This document shows, piece by piece, positions 7,858-47,311 of a stretch of 47,369 nucleotides of DNA; position 1 is the stretch's first letter, and the number at the start of each line of letters is the position of its first letter. Under the pieces are notes generated by a model. That model saw only the letters and a program-made list of their open reading frames with translations. It did not search any database and was not told the DNA's origin. A program made the translations under genes and the position numbers. Source of the stretch: Candidatus Parcubacteria bacterium (GTDB taxonomy: Bacteria > Patescibacteriota > Patescibacteriia > Patescibacteriales > UBA12075); NCBI GenBank assembly GCA_023137275.1, contig JAGLPO010000006.1, positions 1 to 47,369 on the forward strand, in the 5' to 3' direction.

Positions 7858-7968
7858 TAGACAACAGACAGCAGTCTATAATCCACATTCTGCTTGCTTT
7901 CTATATATCTGCCCTCTGCCGTCTGTTTTCTGCCGTCTGCGGTCTGTTGTCTGCCGTCTATCTACTAC
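7858..7968. repeat. Heptamer-stem hairpin element (CAGACRR)n - loop - (YYGTCTG)n
   Basis: tagacaacagacagcag | tctataatccacattctg | ...ctgccgtctgttttctgccgtctgcggtctgttgtctgccgtcta. It occupies the rseP-hpf spacer. The right arm is longer than the left. Confidence 0.85.
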
Positions 7969-9764: not shown

Positions 9765-9841
9765 TAGACAACAGACAGCAGACGACAGAAAATAGAGTGT
9801 GAATTGCAGGCTGCCGTCTGCCGTCTGTTGTCTATTTTCTG
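9765..9841. repeat. Heptamer-stem hairpin element with the loop in the opposite orientation to the other copies
   Basis: tagacaacagacagcagacgacag | aaaatagagtgtgaattgcagg | ctgccgtctgccgtctgttgtcta. The reverse complement of the loop (cctgcaattcacactct) matches the loop consensus of the other copies. Confidence 0.85.
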
Positions 9842-10929: not shown

Positions 10930-10999
10930 TAGACAGCAGACAACAGACGACAGTCTGTAATTCACATTCTGCCGTCTGTTGTCTGTCGTCTGTCGTCTA
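10930..10999. repeat. Heptamer-stem hairpin element overlapping the holB 3' end
   Basis: tagacagcagacaacagacgacag | tctgtaattcacattctg | ccgtctgttgtctgtcgtctgtcgtcta. Confidence 0.9.
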
Positions 11000-12059
11000 T
11001 ATTTATTACAATATTTTCCAAAACCAGGCGCGGGCTTACGTTGTTACGCAAATATTTCTTGGCTTGTTCAAGCAGCTCTTCCAAACGAATTAAATCCCGG
11101 CTGTTTCTTGACTCCAGAATTCTACCTATCTCACTGCTGACATATTCATGCTGTACGCGATTGTCCAGATTAAAATTTATAAGTATTGAGTCGCGAATTA
11201 CGCCTTCCCATATTTCTATTGTCCGTCTGGTCCTGGAGGCTGTTTCCTGGCTGGAATTCTTTTTATTAATCAAACTGCCAATGGCCTGCAAACGCTCGTT
11301 AATGTTTTGATTGAAAAAAGAAATAAACATTCTGGCCAATTCTTTAAACTGCTCATAAAATTCCGGGGTTTCCAAAAGCTTGATGGCCAGAGCCGGGCGC
11401 CCCAAAGAAAGACGGGACAGATCCTTGGCCCGGCTACGGCTGGCGTTATGGGAGTCAATCAAATAATTATAGATAATTCCGTTAGGCACCGGCCTGAACT
11501 GCAGCAGCTGGCTTCGGGAAACGATCGTTTTGGGCAAACTCTCAATATCGGTAACAATTAAAATAATAACTACGTTTGAATTCGGCTCTTCCATGGTCTT
11601 AAGAAGCGCGTTGGCTGCTTCCAGATTCAGCTTGTCGGCATGCTTGATAATGCCAACTTTATATTTGCTTAAAAAAGAGCTCATGCTTAAAATTTTAATA
11701 AACCCTCTGATCTCGTCCACGCTGATAAACTTTTTATCTTTAGCTTTTTTAAGCAAATGAAAATCACCATGCACCATTTGCTTTTCATCTTCGTCTTTGG
11801 CTTTTCTCTCTCTTTGGCCTTGAAACTGCTGGCACGACCGGCACTCAGAGCAAGGATAAGGGCTTATTTTGTCCTTGGTTTTTTCGCACAGCAAACACTG
11901 AGCGAAAAAACGCGCCAAAGTTGTTTTGCCCAGATTGTCCGGCCCGAGAAAAATATAGCTTCCGCCGACCTGCCCGTTACCAATGCTTTTCTTTAAAAAC
12001 CTGGTTAAATGGGAGTTTCCAATAAGAGGCCATTCTTTATTTTTAGCGCTATCTAACAT
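10962..12059 (-). CDS. holB: DNA polymerase III subunit delta-prime
   Basis: AAA+ P-loop GPDNLGKTTLARFFAQ, zinc module CLLCE...CSECRSCQ, and a TMEEP motif. The last ~11 codons (DDRRQTTDGRM) come from the repeat element. Confidence 0.85.
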   Translation of the reverse strand: MLDSAKNKEWPLIGNSHLTRFLKKSIGNGQVGGSYIFLGPDNLGKTTLARFFAQCLLCEKTKDKISPYPCSECRSCQQFQGQRERKAKDEDEKQMVHGDFHLLKKAKDKKFISVDEIRGFIKILSMSSFLSKYKVGIIKHADKLNLEAANALLKTMEEPNSNVVIILIVTDIESLPKTIVSRSQLLQFRPVPNGIIYNYLIDSHNASRSRAKDLSRLSLGRPALAIKLLETPEFYEQFKELARMFISFFNQNINERLQAIGSLINKKNSSQETASRTRRTIEIWEGVIRDSILINFNLDNRVQHEYVSSEIGRILESRNSRDLIRLEELLEQAKKYLRNNVSPRLVLENIVINIDDRRQTTDGRM

Positions 12060-13592: not shown

Positions 13593-14118
13593 TAGACGGC
13601 AGACAACAGACGGCAGACAGCAGGCAGACGGCAGGTAGATAGCAGACAGTAGATAGATAACAGGCAGTAGGTAGAAATTAATTAGAGAGGTGTTGACTTT
13701 ATTAAACCGCAAATAATTTTATAGCCTTCAAATACTTTTACTTTAAGCGCGTTAAACTCATCATCAGAAATATATCCCAAATCATTAGCTAAGATGATAT
13801 GATTTTGTAATTCCGTGTTTGAGCCTCTGGCATACAAATAAAATTTTATTCTATCTTTAGAATGATAGCGACCATAGCCTTCGGCTATATTAGCCGTAAT
13901 AGAAGCGGCCGCTCTTCTTATCTGGCTGGTTAGGCCAAATAATTCCTCCTTGGGAAATTGTCTGGTGAGAGAATAAATTTTTAGCACAACTTGATGATTT
14001 TTTTGCCACGCAATTAGATGAGTAAAATGATGTATATTGTTATTGGACATAGAACTTAGAGTCCTACTGCCCGCTATCTGCGTTCTGTTGTCTGCTGTCT
14101 GTCGTCTGTGGTCTGCTA
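13593..14118. mobile_element. Composite element: long heptamer-repeat inverted arms flanking a four-helix-bundle gene
   Basis: The left arm 13593-13675 (tagacggcagacaacagacggcagacagcaggcagacggcag...ggcagtaggtaga) and the right arm 14064-14118 (ctactgcccgctatctgcgttctgttgtctgctgtctgtcgtctgtggtctgcta) are mutually complementary. Same repeat family as the short hairpins. No transposase is visible, so mobility is inferred. Confidence 0.6.
13682..14050 (-). CDS. Four-helix-bundle protein (23S rRNA intervening-sequence protein family; the family that includes DGR Avd)
   Basis: FTHLIAWQKNHQVVLKIYSLTRQFPKEELFGLTSQIRRAAASITANIAEGYGRYHSKDRIKFYLYARGSNTELQNHIILANDLGYI is the characteristic pattern. I prefer the start at M25 (14050), because upstream codons read through the repeat arm. 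Confidence 0.8.
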   Translation of the reverse strand: MSNNNIHHFTHLIAWQKNHQVVLKIYSLTRQFPKEELFGLTSQIRRAAASITANIAEGYGRYHSKDRIKFYLYARGSNTELQNHIILANDLGYISDDEFNALKVKVFEGYKIICGLIKSTPL

Positions 14119-14196
14119 ACAACCAGCAGAGCTCCCAGCCGCTTGCGCAACCAGGAGCTCTTTATGCCGGACCTTTCCCGTAATAATTTAATAGAC

Positions 14197-18300: not shown

Positions 18301-18308
18301 TTAATATA

Positions 18309-18394
18309 ATGCGAATGCTACGAATTAATATGCACCCCACTTCGCTAAAGCTACGAGGGGTAAAAATATAGCGAATTGCGAATTATGCGAATTA
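18309..18394. repeat. GCGAATT heptamer repeats plus a small hairpin in the cysQ-sat spacer
   Basis: atgcgaatgctacgaatta ... cccc-acttcgctaaagctacga-gggg ... gcgaattgcgaattatgcgaatta. The motif is the complement of the ATTCGCAT loop motif of the hairpin family. Confidence 0.7.
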
Positions 18395-19204
18395 TTATAT
18401 GGAAAGTTTATAATTTTCTAAATAATTGATTATTTGATCATGTATAATGCCATTACTGGCAACATAGCCGTGGATATGCGGATCGTCTTGATTATACTTA
18501 TATCTTTTTCCCTTAAGGTCAGTAAGCCTGCCGCCGGCTTCATGGAGAATAATGTCAGCCGCGCAAATATCATATTCCTGCGGATGATTACTTGGGTTTA
18601 AATTTATATCCGCCCGGTCTGACGCAATCAGAACCGCCTTAAGCCCAATGCTTCCGCAAGGGATAATTCTGGTAATATTAAATTCCTTAGCTACTCTTGT
18701 TTCCATCTCTGATTTGTGAAAACGGCTACCAAGGAATCTGGCTTTACTAACATCACTCACCTTGCTTACATTGATCTTTTTCGCTCCCTGATCTTTGATT
18801 TGCCCATACGCGCCCTTTCCCTCAATGGCATAATACAAAATATCTTTAGCTGGCTGATATACTACTCCCAATATTGGCCTGCTCTTTTCCACCAGGGCGA
18901 TCATTATCGTAAAATCCCCGGTTTTATTTATAAAATCCTTAGTGCCATCTAAAGGATCAATGATCCAAACCCGCTCTTTTTTTAGCCGCGCCTTGTCATC
19001 TTCGGTTTCTTCAGACAATACGCCATAATCATGTTTGCTTAAACCCTTAAGAATAATCTTTTCCGAGGCTAGATCCGCTTCTGTCACCGGACTGTCATTA
19101 CCTTTATCTTTTATTTGATAATCTTTGTTATAAAAAGACATAACCTCTTCACCGGCTTGTTTTATCACGTTTAATACTTGGTTTAATATTTCTTTATCTT
19201 TCAT
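18395..19204 (-). CDS. cysQ: 3'(2'),5'-bisphosphate nucleotidase CysQ (inositol monophosphatase superfamily)
   Basis: LSEETEDD and WIIDPLDGTKDF metal-binding motifs, about 270 aa, directly upstream of sat/cysC. I prefer the ATG at 19204; the ORF-track start at 19231 is a TTG. Confidence 0.75.
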   Translation of the reverse strand: MKDKEILNQVLNVIKQAGEEVMSFYNKDYQIKDKGNDSPVTEADLASEKIILKGLSKHDYGVLSEETEDDKARLKKERVWIIDPLDGTKDFINKTGDFTIMIALVEKSRPILGVVYQPAKDILYYAIEGKGAYGQIKDQGAKKINVSKVSDVSKARFLGSRFHKSEMETRVAKEFNITRIIPCGSIGLKAVLIASDRADINLNPSNHPQEYDICAADIILHEAGGRLTDLKGKRYKYNQDDPHIHGYVASNGIIHDQIINYLENYKLSI

Positions 19205-19238
19205 TTCTATAGTATAATTAAATAAACTCAAATTGTTT

Positions 19239-19398
19239 ACTAATCCACCTTACGCACCAAACATTTTTACCTTAGAAAAAGTTATAATAAATGTAATTAA
19301 AACAAAAATGCTAAGATAAAACTTGTTCTTATCCTCGTTTTTGTTTTAATTACATTTATTATAACTTTATTTACGTGATAAACGCGTAACATGAGTTA
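19239..19398. repeat. Complete ~160-bp palindromic repeat with a perfect 31-bp inverted core
   Basis: aaagttataataaatgtaattaaaacaaaaa (19278-19308) is the exact reverse complement of 19338-19368. The outer flanks are also partly complementary (ttac.taa..cac.ttacgc / gcgtaacatgagtta). The left half matches 47320-47369 and the right half matches 1-70. Confidence 0.85.
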
Positions 19399-19412
19399 CT
19401 AAATTAACTATA

Positions 19413-32180: not shown

Positions 32181-32212
32181 TAGCTGGAATTAATTTGTTA
32201 TTTGAATTATAA

Positions 32213-32374
32213 TAGACTTGAGTGCACAATTAGTATTGTAGCGAAATTTTCAGATTTTGAGGAAATTTTTCAGAAAAAATTTTTGCTTATGTGCTAATAT
32301 AGGCCAAAATTTTTTATGCAAAATTTACCAAAATATGGAAATTGCAGCAAATACTAATTGTGCACTCAAGTCTA
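32213..32374. repeat. Perfect 25-bp inverted repeats flanking a 112-bp segment between divergent operons
   Basis: tagacttgagtgcacaattagtatt (32213-32237) is the exact reverse complement of aatactaattgtgcactcaagtcta (32350-32374). Confidence 0.9.
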
Positions 32375-32409
32375 ATAACATATATTTTGCTTATTATATA
32401 GATACAAAT

Positions 32410-40073: not shown

Positions 40074-41149
40074 ATTATTTTAATCAACTTCTCCAAACTA
40101 TGATCATTTTTCACAATCTCTCTTAATTCTTTGCCTAATTCCAATCGCTTCTCCGGCAAAGTATTAATTATTTTTTCAATCCTCTTTGCCAACGCCTGAT
40201 AGTCCCCTTTATCATAAATCAAACCAGGATATTTACATAGCAAATCATTCTTAATTGCGTCATTGCATGAAATTACTAACAAACCACAAGCCATTGCCTC
40301 TAAAACAACCTTATCCAAACTGCCGGTCTGGCTGGCATGAATAAACAGATCAGCATCCTGATAATATTTAATAATATCTTTATTCGGTATTGGACCGACA
40401 AAATTAACTCTCTCCTCAAGCCCCTTTTCACCAACCAACTGCTTTAACTCCTTAAAATATTTCTCATCTTTCTCATCTAATGGCCCGCCGATAACGTCAA
40501 ATTTAACATTCTTAATCCTTTCCACTGCCTTAATCAAGGTTTTAATATCTTTAGATGGAGAAATCCTCCCAACGGTTATTAGCGTAAATTTTGAATTTTG
40601 AATTTTGAATTTTGAATCAATTTTTAATTCTGAATTTTTAATTTTTAATTTTTGATAATCAATCCCATGCCCGACAACTTTAACCTTTTTACTTGATAAT
40701 CTAAAACTCTCTTTAGAAGCCGTAAAAATAATATCAGTAAATTTTTCCGCGATTCGCAAATGCCAGGGAGCAGCCTTATGAGTCCACCATAAGGCAATTT
40801 TTTTTCTCATTAATTTCCAAAATATTCCCCCCAAAACCACATACTCCGAATTCATATGAACAAAAACCTTATCATAATTACATCTTTCAGAAATTATATA
40901 TTTATAAAATCTAATTATATATGAACATCTCAATAATAACCTGCCGTCTGTTGTCTGTTGTCTGTTGTCTAAGTTCTCTTTCCCTAAACTTAATACTTTC
41001 ACATTATCCGGTAAATCATATTCTCCTTTATATAAACATATTACAGTTAATTTTTCACAACGCGTGGCAAAAACACGCAACCAATCGTGAAAAAAACCCA
41101 AAATAGAGTCGTTTTTATCAACTTTTTGGGTAATAATTAATAATTTCAT
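40055..41149 (-). CDS. Glycosyltransferase family 4 carrying two in-frame short-repeat insertions
   Basis: C-terminal FIHASQTGSLDKVVLEAMACGLLVIS and VGRISPSKD motifs. The likely start, MKLLIITQKV at 41149, overlaps the upstream stop as TAATG. Confidence 0.8.
   Translation of the reverse strand: MKLLIITQKVDKNDSILGFFHDWLRVFATRCEKLTVICLYKGEYDLPDNVKVLSLGKENLDNRQQTTDGRLLLRCSYIIRFYKYIISERCNYDKVFVHMNSEYVVLGGIFWKLMRKKIALWWTHKAAPWHLRIAEKFTDIIFTASKESFRLSSKKVKVVGHGIDYQKLKIKNSELKIDSKFKIQNSKFTLITVGRISPSKDIKTLIKAVERIKNVKFDVIGGPLDEKDEKYFKELKQLVGEKGLEERVNFVGPIPNKDIIKYYQDADLFIHASQTGSLDKVVLEAMACGLLVISCNDAIKNDLLCKYPGLIYDKGDYQALAKRIEKIINTLPEKRLELGKELREIVKNDHSLEKLIKIICKSYL
40587..40654. repeat. Heptamer tandem repeats (AATTTTG)x4 and (AATTTTT)x3 inside the GT4 gene
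   Basis: aattttgaattttgaattttgaattttg at 40587-40614 and aatttttaatttttaattttt at 40633-40653. They encode KIKNSELKIDSKFKIQNSKF. Confidence 0.9.
40941..40972. repeat. Heptamer repeat (YYGTCTG)n inside the GT4 gene
   Basis: ctgccgtctgttgtctgttgtctgttgtcta encodes DNRQQTTDGR. Confidence 0.9.
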
Positions 41150-41600: not shown

Positions 41601-41849
41601 ATGACTACCAAACTTATAGGCGTTAGAGAATTTCGCCAAAACATTGCAACGCTTTATGCTAAAGCAAAAAAAAATAATTGGCGCTACATAATTTTGAACC
41701 GCAACCAGCCAATTTTTAAAGTTGAACCGCTAAGCAAAAAAGATGCTATTATTGAAAAATTAACCCAGGAAATTGAAGAGGCCAGAGAAGACGTGAAAAA
41801 AGGAAGATTATATACAATGGAACAAATCCGCCGTGATTTAAAGCTTTAA
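41601..41849 (+). CDS. Type II antitoxin, Phd/YefM-like
   Basis: 82 aa. The N-terminus IGVREFRQNIATLYAKAKKN...ILNRNQPIFKVEPL is typical. It ends 3 nt before the toxin gene. Confidence 0.7.
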   Translation: MTTKLIGVREFRQNIATLYAKAKKNNWRYIILNRNQPIFKVEPLSKKDAIIEKLTQEIEEAREDVKKGRLYTMEQIRRDLKL

Positions 41850-41852
41850 CTT

Positions 41853-42128
41853 GTGAAATACAAACTATTCTATACATTAAAAGCAAAAAAAGATTTAGCT
41901 CATCTTGATAAAAAAATAGCAAATAGAATTTTAGACAAATTAGACTCCTTTATTGAATTCGACAATCCATTAAATCGCGCGAAAAAACTAGTAGATAACA
42001 AACAGGGGGCTTACAGGTTTAGAATTGGAGATTACAGAGCTATTTTTGATATTGATAATAGCGGGAAAATTATTATACTTTTAATTTTACGAGTTAAACA
42101 CCGGAAAGAAGTCTATAGAAATTTTTAG
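41853..42128 (+). CDS. Type II toxin, RelE/ParE family
   Basis: 91 aa, GTG start. YRFRIGDYRAIFDIDNSGKIIILLILRVKHRKEVYR is the classic RelE/ParE C-terminal pattern. Confidence 0.8.
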   Translation: MKYKLFYTLKAKKDLAHLDKKIANRILDKLDSFIEFDNPLNRAKKLVDNKQGAYRFRIGDYRAIFDIDNSGKIIILLILRVKHRKEVYRNF

Positions 42129-42255: not shown

Positions 42256-42267
42256 GCGTAGCGAAGG

Positions 42268-42352
42268 CGGAGAGTGAGGGATTCGAACCCTCGTGGGCTA
42301 TTAACCCGCCTGCTTTCCAAGCAAGTGCCATAGGCCTCTAGGCGAACTCTCC
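42268..42352 (-). tRNA. tRNA-Ser (anticodon GGA), type II with a long variable arm
   Basis: Minus strand: GGAGAGT-TC-GCC..GGC-A-CTTGC-TTGGAAA-GCAGG-(long variable arm)-GAGGG-TTCGAAT-CCCTC-ACTCTCC-G. Perfect 7-bp acceptor stem, canonical T-loop, 85 nt. CCA is not encoded. Confidence 0.9.
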
Positions 42353-43241: not shown

Positions 43242-43298
43242 CTTAGACCGCAGACAACAGACGGCAGACAGCAGCCAATCATTCGCATGCTGTCGTCT
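43242..43298. repeat. Heptamer-stem hairpin element with a truncated right arm
   Basis: tagaccgcagacaacagacggcagacagcag | ccaatcattcgcatg | ctgtcgtcttg. Confidence 0.8.
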
Positions 43299-44785: not shown

Positions 44786-44850
44786 TTAGACCGCAGACCG
44801 CAGTCTGTTATTCGCATTCTGTTGTCTGCTGTCTGTGGTCTGCTGTCTCG
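44786..44850. repeat. Heptamer-stem hairpin element filling the gatC-gatA spacer
   Basis: tagaccgcagaccgcag | tctgttattcgcattctg | ttgtctgctgtctgtggtctgctgtctcg. Confidence 0.9.
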
Positions 44851-45144: not shown

Positions 45145-45212
45145 AGAAACAGACAGCAGATAGCAGATAGCAGTATAATATTCGCATACTGTGGCCTGTT
45201 GTCTGTTGTCTA
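45145..45212. repeat. Heptamer-stem hairpin element filling the ligA-gatC spacer
   Basis: agaaacagacagcagatagcagatagcag | tataatattcgcatactg | tggcctgttgtctgttgtcta. Confidence 0.9.
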
Positions 45213-45217
45213 ATTAA

Positions 45218-47311
45218 TTATTTAATCATCTTTAAAAATTCTTCTTCGCTAATTATCTTCACTCCCAGTTCTTTAGCTTTTTCAAATTTACTCCCCGGGT
45301 CTTTGCCAGCCACAATCAGATCGGTTTTTGGGCTAACCGCGGAACTGATCTTACCGCCTAATTCTCTTATTTTAGCCTTTGCCCGCTCCCTTGTCAAACT
45401 CTTTAAACTTCCGGTTAAAACAACGGCTTTTCCGCTTAATTCAGAGGGTCTTTTTCTTGTCTTTAAATGGGCAATATCAATAACAACACCGGCTTTTTCC
45501 AGTTTATTTAACAGCTCAATATTTAACTTATTATGAAACCAATCATACACGCTCCTGGCCACAATCGGCCCAATATCCGGCAAATTTTCTAATTCTTCAA
45601 TAGTATAATCACTAAATATTCTTTTAATTTGAGAAATTTTATTCTCTTGTCTGCCGTCTGCCGTCTGCCGTCTGCTTTCTGCTGCTAAAAACAGCGCGCT
45701 CTCTTCCCCGATATGCCTGATCCCAAGACCGATTAAAAATCGCTCCAGCAAAATATTTTTCTTCACCTGTATTGAATCAACTAAATTCTCGGCTGATTTG
45801 TCAGCAAATCTTTCCAAAGGTTTTAAATCTCCCGCGGCTAGAGAATAAAAATCAGCCACATCGCTTATTAGGCCTTCTTTCATAAGCTGTTCAATGATCT
45901 TCGGTCCCAAACCTTCAATATCAACCGCGCCCTTGCTGGTCCAATGGGACAGCCTGCGCAAATTAACCGCGTAGCAATCATTATTAATACAGCGATGCGC
46001 CACTTCGCCTTTTATTTTTTTAATATCTGAAGCACAGATCAAACACTTCTTAGGCGCGATAATCGTTTTTTCCTTGCCGGTCCGAAGTTTTGGAAGCGCT
46101 TTTATTACCTTGGGAATAACATCGCCGGCGCGCTCAAGAATCACGGTATCTCCGATTTTCAGCTTAAGACGTTTGATCTCATCCATATTATGGAGCGTAG
46201 CGTGCGTTACCGTAACTCCGCCCACATTGGCCGGTTCCAGCACTGCTATGGGTGTTAATACGCCGGTTCGTCCGACTTGCCAGACCACTTCCTTGATCCT
46301 GGTCGTTACCTGAATGCCGGCAAATTTGTAAGCCATCATATATCTGGGGCCCTTGCCGACCGTACCAAGTATATTCCATAGGGCCAAATCATTAACTTTT
46401 ACTACCATGCCGTCAACCTCAAAGGGCAGATTGTCCCGGTTCTTTTCCCAATGCGCGTGCATCTTGTTAACCGCTTCCAAATTAGCGCAATATTTATTCT
46501 CACGCAAAGTCTTAAAACCAAGCCGGGCAAGCAGTTCCCGCTTTTCTTCATTTTTCTTAAGGCCCATATCGGCCACAATCTCATAAGCGATAAAATCAAG
46601 CTTTCTCTCGGCCGCCAATTTCGGATCCAGCTGGCGAACCGAGCCGGCAGCCGCGTTGCGCGGATTCTTCAGCTCGGGCTTGTTGGCTTTTTTATATTTT
46701 TGGTTTAACTCTTTAAAAACCGCCTTGGTCATGATTATTTCGCCGCGCACTTCAATATTCTTTATTTTATCTGCCAGATTAAGAGGAACAGAATCAATGG
46801 TTTTGATATTCCCGGTCACATCTTCCCCTATTCGCCCATCGCCCCGGGTAATCGCCTGAACCAGGCTATTATTCTCATAACGAAGCGCGATTGCTATTCC
46901 GTCAAGTTTTAACTCACAAAAGTAACCTCCCAAATCAACACCTCCCCCCCTCCGCTGCGCTCCTCCCCCTCTCCTAATTAGGAGAGGGGGGCGGGGGAAG
47001 AGGATTTTAATATTTCTGGCTTCCCAATCAGCCATGTCCTGCTTATTAAAAGCGTCAAAAAGGGACAGCATGCGCGAGGAATGAGCGGCTTTTTTAAATT
47101 TATCCAAAGGCCGGCCGCCAACGCGCTGGGTCGGCGAATCCGAAGTCACCAAATCCGGAAATTCCTGCTCCAGCTTAAAAAGCTCGTTTTTTAGGCTGTC
47201 CAAAGCCTCCTGGCTCATACTCTCCAAATCCCGCACATGGTACTGATAGCGATGAAACGCTATTTCCTTTTTTAATTTTTCTATCCTGTTTTTAACAAAA
47301 TTTTTATCCAT
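45218..47311 (-). CDS. ligA: NAD-dependent DNA ligase LigA with two repeat-derived in-frame insertions
   Basis: KLDG adenylation motif (CELKLDGIAI), a Zn-finger with four Cys (CLICAS...CINNDC), HhH region (GIRHIGE, DIGPIVA), and a C-terminal BRCT (GKAVVLTGSL...). Confidence 0.95.
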   Translation of the reverse strand: MDKNFVKNRIEKLKKEIAFHRYQYHVRDLESMSQEALDSLKNELFKLEQEFPDLVTSDSPTQRVGGRPLDKFKKAAHSSRMLSLFDAFNKQDMADWEARNIKILFPRPPLLIRRGGGAQRRGGGVDLGGYFCELKLDGIAIALRYENNSLVQAITRGDGRIGEDVTGNIKTIDSVPLNLADKIKNIEVRGEIIMTKAVFKELNQKYKKANKPELKNPRNAAAGSVRQLDPKLAAERKLDFIAYEIVADMGLKKNEEKRELLARLGFKTLRENKYCANLEAVNKMHAHWEKNRDNLPFEVDGMVVKVNDLALWNILGTVGKGPRYMMAYKFAGIQVTTRIKEVVWQVGRTGVLTPIAVLEPANVGGVTVTHATLHNMDEIKRLKLKIGDTVILERAGDVIPKVIKALPKLRTGKEKTIIAPKKCLICASDIKKIKGEVAHRCINNDCYAVNLRRLSHWTSKGAVDIEGLGPKIIEQLMKEGLISDVADFYSLAAGDLKPLERFADKSAENLVDSIQVKKNILLERFLIGLGIRHIGEESALFLAAESRRQTADGRQENKISQIKRIFSDYTIEELENLPDIGPIVARSVYDWFHNKLNIELLNKLEKAGVVIDIAHLKTRKRPSELSGKAVVLTGSLKSLTRERAKAKIRELGGKISSAVSPKTDLIVAGKDPGSKFEKAKELGVKIISEEEFLKMIK
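45646..45686. repeat. Heptamer repeat (YYGTCTG)n in frame in the ligA HhH region
   Basis: cttgtctgccgtctgccgtctgccgtctgctttctgctgc encodes AAESRRQTADGRQE. Confidence 0.9.
46941..47002. repeat. G/C-homopolymer-rich palindrome in frame in ligA, just before the KxDG motif
   Basis: cctccccccctccgctgcgctcctccccctctcc-taatta-ggagaggggggcgggggaagagg encodes FPRPPLLIRRGGGAQRRGGG. Confidence 0.85.

What the first reader, a model, noticed from the sequence alone, without database searches (positions are those of the whole stretch)
7858..7968. A family of hairpin elements with stems made of tandem heptamers (CAGACRR)n and a conserved ATTCRCAT loop
At least seven intergenic copies share one design. The left arm is TAGAC + (CAGACRR)2-5. 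The loop matches ...TAAT(T/C)CRCAT(T/A/G)CTG. The right arm is (YYGTCTG)n + TA.

Copies:
- 7858-7968
- 9765-9841, with the loop inverted
- 10930-10999
- 13593-14118, an expanded copy
- 43242-43298
- 44786-44850
- 45145-45212

Single-arm runs also occur inside secA, a GT4 gene and ligA. Arm lengths differ between and within copies, as expected if units are gained and lost by slippage.

One strand of the arm contains no T and the other contains no A. No stop codon is therefore possible in any of the six frames. A 7-nt period returns to frame every 21 nt, so every frame encodes the same 7-aa repeat: QTTD(N/G)RQ on one strand and LSVVCCL on the other.

The elements are preceded, not followed, by a T-run on the plus strand. 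They are not canonical intrinsic terminators for the minus-strand genes they separate. They resemble the heptameric STRR repeats of cyanobacteria and REP/BIME-type elements in concept. This particular design, with a conserved loop and cargo-carrying and coding-invading variants, is not one I can match to a described family.
Basis: seen in the sequence. Interest (0 to 1): 0.75.

Follow-up and report, generated by a model that had tools for sequence, protein, structure and literature searches.

The report
Heptamer-stem hairpins around a four-helix-bundle gene
The hairpins are real: one copy carries a gene for a small Avd/S23p-like four-helix-bundle protein, six copies are gene-less, and relatives of this gene across bacterial phyla are also bracketed by inverted 7-base repeats, linking two unexplained features.

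Summary
The window comes from a Patescibacteria (CPR) genome assembled from a metagenome, GCA_030634025.1. It holds seven hairpins with arms made of (CAGACRR)n / (YYGTCTG)n, plus three single-arm runs inside secA, a GT4 gene and ligA.

The "expanded" copy carries a 122-aa gene on the minus strand (13682-14050). It belongs to PF05635/TIGR02436: the four-helix-bundle (4HB) "23S rRNA intervening-sequence protein", also called S23p, and related to Avd.

The design is not local:
- 67 of 80 homologous 4HB genes, mostly Patescibacteria, have a period-7 tandem array within 250 nt. Periods 6 and 8 give 6 and 3.
- The two arrays are reverse complements of each other.
- The unit sequence differs between genomes.
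- I saw the same bracket in Xanthomonas, where the published GGGAATC repeats flank XCC0516, in cyanobacterial plasmids and in Riemerella. The Coxiella 23S intervening sequence is described with it.
- At one orthologous site, three genomes carry CAGACRR, CAGATAR and CAGTAAA arms, each with a matching partner arm.

Best reading: these are cassettes like the rRNA intervening sequence (IVS), together with gene-less derivatives, transcribed as part of host operons. The stems are probably cut by RNase III and/or bound by the pentameric protein; that step is inferred, not shown. How the elements move is unknown.

I found no paper that links this protein family to heptamer repeats in general.

The parts
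7858..7960 (.). Hairpin H1. Left arm 7858-7874 (2.4 units), loop region 7875-7908 containing ATCCACAT, right arm 7909-7960 (7.4 units). It lies between the rseP stop and the start of hpf (hibernation-promoting factor gene).
9765..9834 (.). Hairpin H2. Arms 9765-9792 and 9811-9834; the loop carries the motif inverted (GTGTGAAT). It lies between the BNR-repeat gene and frr (ribosome recycling factor gene).
   Evidence: (I8: 24 nt arms, 92% complementary)
10930..10999 (.). Hairpin H3. Arms 10930-10952 and 10972-10999; loop TAATTCACATT. The holB ORF reads through the right arm and stops at TGA in the loop (10962-10964).
   Evidence: (I7)
13593..14118 (-). Full-length cassette H4. In the sense of the gene, the upstream arm is 14063-14118, (CAGACRR)n degenerating inward to CAGATAG. 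The leader is 14051-14069. The downstream arm is 13593-13675.
   Evidence: (I2, I5, I11)
13682..14050 (-). Cargo gene: a 122-aa four-helix-bundle protein (PF05635 23S_rRNA_IVP, TIGR02436; Avd/S23p-like).
   Evidence: Pfam E = 8e-37. TIGR02436 E = 3.8e-36. PDB 2GSC (XCC0516) E = 5e-18. PHROG Avd E = 8.6e-9. Gene call in L007. Start codon check.
43244..43298 (.). Hairpin H5. Left arm 43244-43274; loop with ATTCGCAT; right arm truncated (43291-43298). It lies between the DsbA-like gene and gatA.
44787..44848 (.). Hairpin H6. It fills the whole gatC-gatA spacer. Loop TTATTCGCATTC.
45145..45212 (.). Hairpin H7. It fills the ligA-gatC spacer. Loop ATATTCGCATAC. The left arm is CAGATAG here but CAGACAG in strain L011.
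3286..3322 (-). Single arm (5.3 units) inside secA. It encodes TTDNRQQTTDN within a 20-aa insertion relative to the SecA of L001.
40944..40971 (-). Single arm (4 units) inside the GT4 glycosyltransferase gene. It encodes DNRQQTTDG.
45647..45681 (-). Single arm (about 5 units) inside ligA. It encodes RRQTADGRQ. Two units differ as whole units (CC to TT) in strain L011.

Best explanation
**What it is.** The seven hairpins are one full-length copy and six gene-less copies of a cassette resembling the intervening sequences (IVS) of 23S rRNA genes. The full cassette is a gene for a small four-helix-bundle protein (PF05635, the S23p/Avd family, a pentameric ring). It is bracketed closely by two inverted arrays of tandem 7-nt units.

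**How it probably works.**
- The cassettes sit inside strings of co-directional housekeeping genes and are transcribed with them.
- In the transcript the two arrays pair into a stem of about 17-35 bp.
- Inferred from the homologous rRNA intervening sequences: RNase III cuts this stem, so the insert is cut out of, or insulated from, the host RNA.
- Inferred from Avd, which grips an RNA stem-loop with all five protomers: the encoded pentamer binds such stems.

**How it evolves.**
- The arrays change by slippage and unit-to-unit conversion.
- Both arms change together, so complementarity and the 7-nt period persist while the unit sequence drifts from genome to genome.
- In this lineage the stop-free unit CAGACRR has let gene-less copies multiply in intergenic spacers and enter coding regions.

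**Shown:** the anatomy, the identity of the cargo, the generality of the bracket, and the concerted change of the arms.

**Inferred:** RNase III cutting, protein binding, and derivation of the short copies by loss of the ORF.

**Unknown:** the mechanism of spread.
For: **Cargo.** It belongs to PF05635/TIGR02436 and resembles XCC0516, PDB 2GSC.

**The bracket is general.**
- 67 of 80 homologous genes have a period-7 array within 250 nt, and 36 have one on both sides.
- Array density is 2.78 per kb in the flanks against 0.21 per kb elsewhere.
- Period 6 gives 6 loci and period 8 gives 3.
- The upstream unit matches the reverse complement of the downstream unit within 0-2 mismatches in 35 of 36 loci.
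- The inverted-repeat alignment score of the flanks averages 17.5 against 7.7-8.5 in controls. 59 of 84 loci exceed the 99th percentile of the controls.
- Arrays abut or overlap the start codon in 27 of 50 cases and the stop codon in 28 of 55.

**Same bracket in other phyla.**
- Xanthomonas: accB-(GGGAATC)n-4HB-(CCCATTC)n-accC.
- Nostoc edaphicum, Trichormus, Picosynechococcus and Riemerella.

**Concerted change of the arms.** At the orthologous site downstream of the lipase gene, the window, L228 and L002 have CAGACRR, CAGATAR and CAGTAAA upstream. They have YYGTCTG, YTATCTG and TTTACTG downstream, in register.

**Operon-internal position.** 11 of 13 annotated loci have both neighbours co-directional with the 4HB gene. 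All six short hairpins lie between minus-strand genes.

**Short copies share units with the local cassette.** This holds in the window and also in L014, L042 and L053. The loop of H3, CAG|AATGTGAATTA, resembles the cassette leader of L092, CAG|AATGTCTAAATT.

**Precedents.** Avd binds an 11-bp RNA stem-loop with all five protomers. IVS stems are RNase III substrates.
Against: - There are no RNA data for this organism, so neither cleavage nor binding has been observed.
- Wobble asymmetry gives no sign that the sense transcript is the selected strand. In 59 cassettes there are 32 G.U against 47 A.C mismatches (p = 0.11).
- Among the six short hairpins, the more stable strand varies.
- Complementarity at the variable RR/YY positions is only partial.
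- Gene conversion within a DNA palindrome could keep the arms complementary without any selection on RNA.
- 13 of 80 homologous genes show no period-7 array by my detector.
- One cassette, in Pseudanabaena, has direct rather than inverted arrays.
- The similarity between loop and leader is short and could be chance.
- No enzyme that could move the element was found.
Confidence: 0.55

Rival explanations
1. The hairpins are a DNA-level mobile element. The inverted heptamer arrays would be terminal inverted repeats, or a hairpin/cruciform substrate, used by a transposase or recombinase encoded elsewhere in the genome. The short copies would be derivatives of the miniature inverted-repeat (MITE) kind. 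Any RNA stem would be a by-product.
For: - 4HB genes that are 75-80% identical lie in unrelated contexts in different genomes: secD/secF, glyS/M16 peptidase, fba/TPR, pilin genes, dinB/lexA.
- There are six gene-less copies in 47 kb here. Comparable stretches of four other genomes with the same unit family have none, which looks like a lineage-specific burst.
- Copies occur inside genes.
- The outermost unit starts with T (TAGAC...GTCTA) at most ends. That could be a TA target.
- There is no strand bias in wobble pairs.
Against: - No transposase, RAYT, integrase or reverse transcriptase lies in the window.
- The cargo is not a known recombinase.
- No clear target-site duplication is visible.
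- The cassette downstream of the lipase gene is kept at the same site in three genomes while its arms are rewritten. That fits long residence better than frequent movement.
- Arms made of tandem heptamers are not known as transposon ends.
Confidence: 0.25
2. The hairpins are binding sites of the four-helix-bundle pentamer, forming a regulon. The protein would recognise heptamer-repeat stems, or their conserved loop, in mRNA or DNA, and so control translation or decay of its own and of neighbouring genes. This overlaps with the best explanation but makes protein binding the primary function.
For: - Avd, a homologue, is contacted by an RNA stem-loop through all five protomers. XCC0516 is a homopentameric ring.
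- Gene-less hairpins use the same unit as the local cassette.
- The loop motif YGAAT recurs as the repeat unit of many other cassettes, for example CACGAAT, TATGAAT and GGGAATC.
- It also appears as five direct GCGAAT copies at 18305-18397.
- Hairpins H6 and H7 touch the start codons of gatA and gatC.
- Authors working on Nostoc heptamer repeats postulate an unidentified binding partner.
Against: - No binding data exist.
- Unit sequences differ widely while the proteins stay 45-60% identical in this sample. Sequence-specific recognition would therefore need matching changes in the protein, which I did not test.
- Shared units can equally be explained by common descent from the cassette.
Confidence: 0.3
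3. The hairpins are host-owned intercistronic stem-loops of the REP kind, acting as mRNA stabilisers or attenuators. They would grow in place by replication slippage. The four-helix-bundle gene would simply happen to sit in one of them.
For: - All short copies lie in spacers between co-directional genes.
- The related genome L002 has hairpins of other sequence in some of the same spacers, holB-BNR and frr-rseP.
- Heptamer repeats are reported as over-represented in many bacteria, and slippage is the published explanation.
Against: - The link with the 4HB gene is far too regular to be incidental: 67 of 80 loci, specific to period 7, and seen in several phyla.
- The hairpins are not terminators.
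- Copies inside genes and a truncated copy (H5) are not expected of a tuned regulatory element.
Confidence: 0.1

Closest known systems
23S rRNA intervening sequences that carry an S23p ORF (Leptospira, Coxiella burnetii; PMC4990558)
   Same: - The ORF belongs to the same protein family.
- The ORF is enclosed by complementary ends that form a long stem.
- In Coxiella, tandem heptamers (GACAGAT, that is CAGATGA) lie just upstream of the ORF. They are close in sequence to CAGACGA/CAGATAG here.
- The element is transcribed as part of a host RNA.
- Gene-less versions exist.
   Different: - The copies here lie between and inside protein-coding genes, not in rRNA helices 9, 25 or 45.
- Both arms here are whole heptamer arrays.
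- One genome carries many gene-less copies with a shared loop.
- RNase III cutting is shown for the rRNA elements and only inferred here.
Convergent GGGAATC heptamer repeat pairs of Xanthomonas (Rehm et al. 2015, PMC4692102)
   Same: - Tandem 7-nt units form paired arrays on opposite strands that can fold as stem-loops.
- The arrays are mostly intergenic and are transcribed.
- Length and sequence vary between close species while position and type are kept.
- I found that one such pair brackets XCC0516, the closest solved homologue of the window's cargo.
   Different: - The unit is G-rich and was studied as a G-quadruplex former.
- That paper makes no link to the four-helix-bundle gene.
- No conserved loop was described.
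Cyanobacterial STRR and other heptamer repeats (Calothrix/Nostoc), and the TAACTGA repeats of Beggiatoaceae (PMC4679880; 10.1101/2022.06.06.494920)
   Same: - They are tandem heptamers concentrated in intergenic DNA next to start codons.
- Their function is unknown, and an unidentified binding partner has been postulated.
- In cyanobacterial plasmids I found heptamer arrays bracketing 4HB genes.
   Different: - They are described mainly as direct arrays, not as hairpins.
- The units differ.
- No published association with PF05635 turned up in my searches.
REP/BIME elements with RAYT transposases
   Same: They are short, abundant, intergenic palindromic elements inside operons.
   Different: - REPs are single imperfect palindromes with a conserved GTAG/CTAC head. 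They are not tandem heptamers.
- They are tied to a RAYT gene, and none was seen here.
- REPs carry no ORF.
Avd of diversity-generating retroelements and its RNA stem-loop ligand (10.1101/2023.10.23.563531)
   Same: The protein is a homologous pentameric four-helix-bundle ring. It binds a structured RNA stem-loop next to its own locus.
   Different: - The window has no reverse transcriptase and no template or variable repeats.
- The match to the Avd models lies below their curated cut-offs.
- The Avd ligand is an 11-bp stem with a tetraloop, not a heptamer array.

Membership tests
rRNA intervening sequence (IVS) with S23p ORF | Inserted in a helix of a 16S or 23S rRNA gene | tested here: not met
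   The window has no rRNA; Rfam finds only a tRNA. All copies lie between or inside protein-coding genes.
rRNA intervening sequence (IVS) with S23p ORF | Complementary ends that form a long stem enclosing the insert | tested here: met
rRNA intervening sequence (IVS) with S23p ORF | ORF of the S23p / PF05635 family (present in the Leptospira and Coxiella type) | tested here: met
   Met for H4 only: Pfam E = 8e-37, TIGR02436 E = 3.8e-36. The other six copies have no ORF.
rRNA intervening sequence (IVS) with S23p ORF | Cut out of the transcript by RNase III | not testable with these tools
   Needs RNA end-mapping. The stems (17-35 bp) are long enough to be substrates.
Heptamer tandem-repeat families (STRR; Xanthomonas GGGAATC pairs) | Head-to-tail arrays of 7-nt units, mostly intergenic | tested here: met
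Heptamer tandem-repeat families (STRR; Xanthomonas GGGAATC pairs) | Convergent paired arrays able to form a stem-loop (Xanthomonas type) | tested here: met
   Description of the Xanthomonas pairs.
Heptamer tandem-repeat families (STRR; Xanthomonas GGGAATC pairs) | The family's own unit sequence (CCCCAGT, TTGGTCA, CAACAGT or GGGAATC) | tested here: not met
   The unit here is CAGACRR. The STRR unit sequences are quoted from my own knowledge.
REP/BIME | Single imperfect palindrome of 20-40 nt with a conserved GTAG/CTAC head | tested here: not met
   The arms are tandem heptamers that start with TAGAC.
REP/BIME | Cognate RAYT (TnpA_REP) gene in the genome | tested here: inconclusive
   None lies in the 47-kb window. 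The rest of the genome could not be read.
MITE | Terminal inverted repeats plus a target-site duplication | tested here: inconclusive
   The arms are inverted. The ends read TAGAC...GTCTA, which might hide a TA duplication. No empty site was available for comparison.
MITE | Derived from an autonomous element that encodes a transposase | tested here: not met
   The full-length copy encodes a four-helix-bundle protein, not a transposase.
Intrinsic terminator | GC-rich stem followed by a U-run on the transcribed strand | tested here: not met
   None of the hairpins is flagged as a whole. On the minus, sense strand the hairpins are followed by A-runs.
Diversity-generating retroelement | Reverse transcriptase with template and variable repeats next to Avd | tested here: not met
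   No reverse transcriptase lies in the window. The bAvd and DivGenRetAVD matches are below their curated cut-offs.

The most novel reading that the evidence does not exclude
PF05635 four-helix-bundle pentamers and tandem heptamer arrays form one widespread two-part system. The protein would bind stems, or single strands, built of 7-nt units. The heptamer repeats long known as unexplained in many bacteria would then be its cis elements, or the debris of its cassettes. These include the STRR repeats of cyanobacteria, GGGAATC of Xanthomonas and perhaps TAACTGA of Beggiatoaceae, together with the general excess of heptamer repeats. The rRNA intervening sequences that carry an S23p ORF would be the same cassette landed in rRNA.
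Probability: 0.3. Interest if true: 0.9.

Novelty: new variant of a known kind. Interest (0 to 1): 0.75.

Why it matters
Two old puzzles would be joined.

- The S23p/four-helix-bundle family is abundant, has had a solved structure since 2006, and has no known function outside diversity-generating retroelements.
- Tandem heptamer repeats are reported as the most over-represented long simple repeats in many bacterial genomes. They are explained only by a guess about polymerase slippage.

The regular bracket, array then ORF then inverted array, is seen here in Patescibacteria, Xanthomonas, cyanobacteria and Bacteroidota. It gives both puzzles a concrete test in a cultivable organism: does XCC0516 bind (GGGAAUC)n stems, and does RNase III cut them?

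It also shows that elements of the intervening-sequence kind are not confined to rRNA. They live inside ordinary operons such as accBC, secDF, gatCAB and CRISPR-Cas operons.

For annotation, the stop-free arms of this family lengthen called ORFs (holB, the BNR gene) and break short-read assemblies.

Tried and rejected
- **Metagenome scan for the loop.** The pattern CAGACRRCAGN{1,6}ATGYGRATN{3,12}CTG was too degenerate. None had heptamer arms.
- **RNA.duplexfold energies of the cassette flanks.** Real flanks average -56 kcal/mol. Mismatched flanks give -42 and displaced flanks -48. The measure does not discriminate. I replaced it with a local inverted-repeat alignment score.
- **Wobble-pair asymmetry, to decide between RNA-level and DNA-level selection.** Not significant: 32 against 47, p = 0.11.
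- **Exact look-up of the cargo protein.** It failed because my query carried four extra N-terminal residues. The true start codon is at 14050.
- **Rfam.** No family matches the hairpins.
- **PADLOC.** The cargo matches no defence-system model.
- **Search for a recombinase in the window.** None found.
- **Empty-site comparison.** The 98.55% strain L011 has all the hairpins. L002 is too distant, and its spacers hold other hairpins. Insertion boundaries could therefore not be defined.
- **Derivation of the loop from the cassette leader.** Only a short resemblance (CAGAATGT...), which I leave as a suggestion.
- **Frame-independent stop/start adaptor.** I considered whether the 7-nt period serves as such an adaptor, since units like TATGAAT carry ATG and TGA in all frames. 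The CAGACRR unit has neither codon, so I rejected this as a general explanation.
Full report
**1. The observation**

The repeat is real and far beyond chance. CAGACRRCAGACRR with up to one mismatch occurs 43 times in the window, against 0.06 in shuffles.

Reading the sequence gives seven hairpins:
- H1 7858-7960
- H2 9765-9834
- H3 10930-10999
- H4 13593-14118
- H5 43244-43298
- H6 44787-44848
- H7 45145-45212

There are also three single arms: 3286-3322, 40944-40971 and 45647-45681.

The six short copies fold as hairpins on either strand. Five have z-scores from -3.5 to -9.2; the truncated H5 has only -1.4 and -2.1. The arms of H4 close a 541-nt fold, z = -5.2.

Aligned arm against arm, 121 of 150 positions are Watson-Crick. 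Most of this comes from the invariant CAGAC/GTCTG core. The two variable positions of each unit match only in part. Arm lengths differ by multiples of 7.

Four loops carry ATTCRCAT, one carries ATCCACAT, and one carries the motif inverted.

The hairpins are present in two other independent assemblies of the same or a sister population. One is 100% identical and one 98.55% identical. They are therefore not an assembly artefact.

None of them is a canonical terminator.

**2. The organism and the setting**

The window is contig DAOWBO010000007.1 of GCA_030634025.1. It has 37.5% G+C. The closest relatives of its genes are Patescibacteria, such as Magasanikbacteria and Falkowbacteria.

The genes are ordinary housekeeping and glycan-synthesis genes:
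- secD and secA
- hpf (hibernation-promoting factor)
- rseP (M50 protease)
- frr (ribosome recycling factor)
- a BNR-repeat gene
- holB (DNA polymerase III delta')
- gatC, gatA and ligA
- a large glycosyltransferase and methyltransferase cluster

No transposase, integrase, REP-associated transposase (RAYT) or reverse transcriptase is present.

All six short hairpins lie between genes on the minus strand. H6 and H7 fill the gatC-gatA and ligA-gatC spacers completely and touch the start codons. holB reads through the right arm of H3 and ends at a TGA in the loop.

**3. The cargo**

The "expanded" copy H4 holds a 122-aa ORF on the minus strand, 13682-14050.
- PF05635, 23S rRNA-intervening sequence protein: E = 8e-37.
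- TIGR02436, four helix bundle protein: E = 3.8e-36.
- The DGR Avd models match only below their curated cut-offs. A PHROG Avd family matches at 8.6e-9.
- The nearest solved structure is XCC0516 of Xanthomonas campestris, PDB 2GSC, E = 5e-18. It is a homopentameric ring (citing Lin et al. 2006).

This is the family first found as the ORF inside the 23S rRNA intervening sequences of Leptospira and Coxiella. Its function is unknown (PMC4990558).

**4. The bracket is a general property of the gene family**

The Coxiella paper notes tandem GACAGAT heptamers just upstream of the S23p ORF. The 5' RNase III processing site lies at the first repeat. That prompted a wider check.

A scan of one genome per species with a 28-sequence alignment gave 80 loci. 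Most are Patescibacteria of many classes. Melainabacteria, Elusimicrobia, Omnitrophota, Ignavibacteria and a Bacillota assembly are also represented.

- 67 of the 80 genes have a period-7 tandem array within 250 nt, and 36 have one on both sides.
- With the same detector, period 6 gives 6 loci and period 8 gives 3.
- Array density is 2.78 per kb in the flanks against 0.21 per kb in the rest of the loci.
- The upstream unit equals the reverse complement of the downstream unit within 0-2 mismatches in 35 of 36 loci.
- A local inverted-repeat alignment of the 130-nt flanks scores 17.5 on average, against 7.7-8.5 for mismatched or displaced controls. 59 of 84 loci exceed the 99th percentile of the controls.
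- The unit sequence differs from locus to locus: GAATTAT, CAGTAAT, AGTAACT, CACGAAT, GGAATWT, CAGAGAT, TTAGCCS and others. Only the period and the inverted symmetry are kept.
- The arrays hug the ORF. They abut or overlap the start codon in 27 of 50 cases and the stop codon in 28 of 55.

**5. Other phyla**

In Xanthomonas the XCC0516 orthologue sits between accB and accC. It is preceded by GGGAATC-type units and followed by CCCATTC-type units that run up to the accC start codon. These are the GGGAATC repeats described by Rehm et al. as G-quadruplex formers. About 70 convergent pairs per genome were reported, with no link to this gene.

On cyanobacterial and Bacteroidota plasmids:
- Inverted heptamer arrays bracket the gene in Nostoc edaphicum (GGGAACA/TGTTCCC), Trichormus variabilis, Picosynechococcus (between cmr2 and cmr3) and Riemerella.
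- Pseudanabaena has long direct arrays instead (between cas6 and cas4).
- Nostoc PCC 7120 has an array on one side only.
- Calothrix PCC 7716 has none.

**6. Evolution of the arms**

Homologues 75-80% identical to the window's protein lie in unrelated gene contexts. Two of them, L092 and L093, have CAGACRR/CAGATAA arms like the window.

The cassette downstream of the lipase gene is orthologous in three genomes. All three share the same GC-rich hairpin just upstream of the cassette; L002 also shares the gene order. The arms are nevertheless rewritten:
- Upstream: CAGACRR in the window, CAGATAR in L228 (88% protein identity), CAGTAAA in L002 (72%).
- Downstream: YYGTCTG, YTATCTG and TTTACTG respectively.
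- The units are in register, and only CAG/CTG is invariant.

Both arms have thus changed together.

Between the window and the 98.55% strain L011, 7 of 52 differences fall in heptamer arrays. They look like whole-unit replacements.

**7. The gene-less copies**

Short hairpins built from the same unit as the local cassette also occur in L014, L042 and L053. So the window is not unique in kind.

It is unusual in number. Four other genomes with CAGAYRR cassettes show no short hairpin within about 10 kb of the cassette.

The 15-nt loops of the short copies read, in gene sense, CAG|AATGYGAATWA...|CTG. They resemble the start of the cassette leader in L092, CAG|AATGTCTAAATTCT|ATG. That would fit loss of the ORF, but the match is short.

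The single arms inside genes are in-frame insertions in variable regions. The secA run lies in a 20-aa insertion relative to the SecA of L001.

**8. How it most likely works**

Established:
- the anatomy of the hairpins;
- the identity of the cargo;
- the generality and period-specificity of the bracket;
- the position inside co-directional gene strings (11 of 13 annotated loci);
- the concerted change of the arms.

Inferred by homology:
- The stems of rRNA intervening sequences, including those with this ORF, are cut by RNase III.
- The Avd pentamer holds an 11-bp RNA stem-loop with all five protomers.

I therefore favour an RNA-level role. The cassette is transcribed with the host operon, the arrays pair, and the stem is processed and/or bound by the pentamer. 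This lets the insert sit in essential operons and in rRNA.

I could not show this. Wobble asymmetry does not favour the sense strand (32 G.U against 47 A.C, p = 0.11). Conversion within a DNA palindrome could maintain complementarity without selection on RNA. How copies spread is unknown. A DNA-level mobile element served by an enzyme encoded elsewhere remains a serious rival.

**9. Comparison with what is known, and novelty**

The closest known things are:
- the S23p-bearing rRNA intervening sequences;
- the convergent heptamer pairs of Xanthomonas;
- the cyanobacterial STRR-type repeats.

The window's family fails the defining location of an rRNA intervening sequence. It also fails the defining features of REP/BIME elements, MITEs, terminators and DGRs.

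In the searchable literature, 25 papers name the protein family. Among them only the Coxiella paper turned up in my heptamer searches, and only for that one element. I opened only a few of the 25. The papers on heptamer repeats do not mention the protein. Older subscription papers could not be searched, so prior notice cannot be excluded.

I rate the finding as a new variant of a known kind, with high interest because of the general link it exposes.

Noticed in passing
window 40587-40652: A second, unrelated heptamer array, (AATTTTG)n with about 10 units, lies inside the GT4 glycosyltransferase ORF, in the linker before the C-terminal GT1 domain. It reads in frame as (CAAAATT)n on the coding strand.
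   Followed up: partly
window 18305-18397: Five direct copies of GCGAAT (ATGCGAAT, CTACGAAT, TAGCGAAT, TTGCGAAT, ATGCGAAT) flank a small GC hairpin. They lie in the spacer between the sat/cysC fusion gene and the inositol monophosphatase gene. GCGAAT is the loop motif of the hairpin family and is part of the heptamer unit of other genomes' cassettes (CACGAAT, TGCGAAT).
   Followed up: partly
window 14128-14161; L228 446-480; L002 9868-9905: A GC-rich hairpin (AGAGCTCC...GGGAGCTCT) lies between the lipase gene and the cassette. It is conserved at the orthologous site in three genomes even though the adjacent heptamer arms differ.
   Followed up: partly
window 14051-14069 (minus strand); L092 9984-10000; L093 8054-8070; L005 5575-5591: A mini-hairpin leader lies directly before the 4HB start codon. 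Its 5-bp stem contains an AGGA-like Shine-Dalgarno sequence. Paired changes occur between loci (AGAAT/ATTCT, AGGAT/ATCCT, AGGAC/GTTCT). The loop reads NTCTAA.
   Followed up: partly
L225 (Pseudanabaena plasmid) and L227 (Picosynechococcus plasmid): Four-helix-bundle cassettes sit inside CRISPR-Cas operons: cas6-4HB-cas4, and cmr2(cas10)-4HB-cmr3. In Pseudanabaena the flanking arrays are direct, (AAAAGCT)15 and (AAAAGCC)10, not inverted.
   Followed up: no
window 10962-11000 and 10930-10965: The called holB ORF gains a tail (...IDDRRQTTDGRM*) from the hairpin arm and loop. The called BNR ORF starts at a GTG in the loop. The L002 orthologues are 25 and 19 aa shorter. The stop-free arms therefore distort gene calls.
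   Followed up: partly
window 19264-19382; L009 656-826: A 45-nt AT-rich inverted repeat, 87% complementary with 29 nt between the arms, lies in the divergent spacer before the LPG-synthase-like gene. A 171-nt stretch overlapping it (19237-19407) recurs at 89% identity elsewhere on the same contig, outside the window.
   Followed up: no
window 32210-32237 and 32350-32377: A 28-nt inverted repeat, 96% complementary with 112 nt between the arms, straddles the start of the polysaccharide-biosynthesis (flippase-like) gene at 32257.
   Followed up: no
window 41601-42128: A small ORF (41601-41849, no Pfam match) is followed by a ParE-toxin-family ORF (41853-42128; PF05016 in the gene call of L009). 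This is probably a toxin-antitoxin pair, next to tRNA-Ser(GGA) at 42266-42352.
   Followed up: no
window 2323-2373: Three tandem copies of a 17-mer (AAAGTCCGGTGGAAAAC) lie in the secA-secD spacer.
   Followed up: no
L002 13150-13320 and 15240-15400: The related genome has long AT-rich hairpins in the orthologous holB-BNR and frr-rseP spacers. Their arms contain CAATAATCC/CAGTAATCC-like units. One centre, GTTATTCGAATAG, is nearly the same as the H6 loop of the window, GTTATTCGCAT.
   Followed up: partly
window 44826-44848 and 45151-45173: The right arm of H6 and the left arm of H7 are complementary to each other (23 nt, 83%) across gatC. An alternative pairing that loops out the whole gatC ORF is therefore possible.
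   Followed up: no
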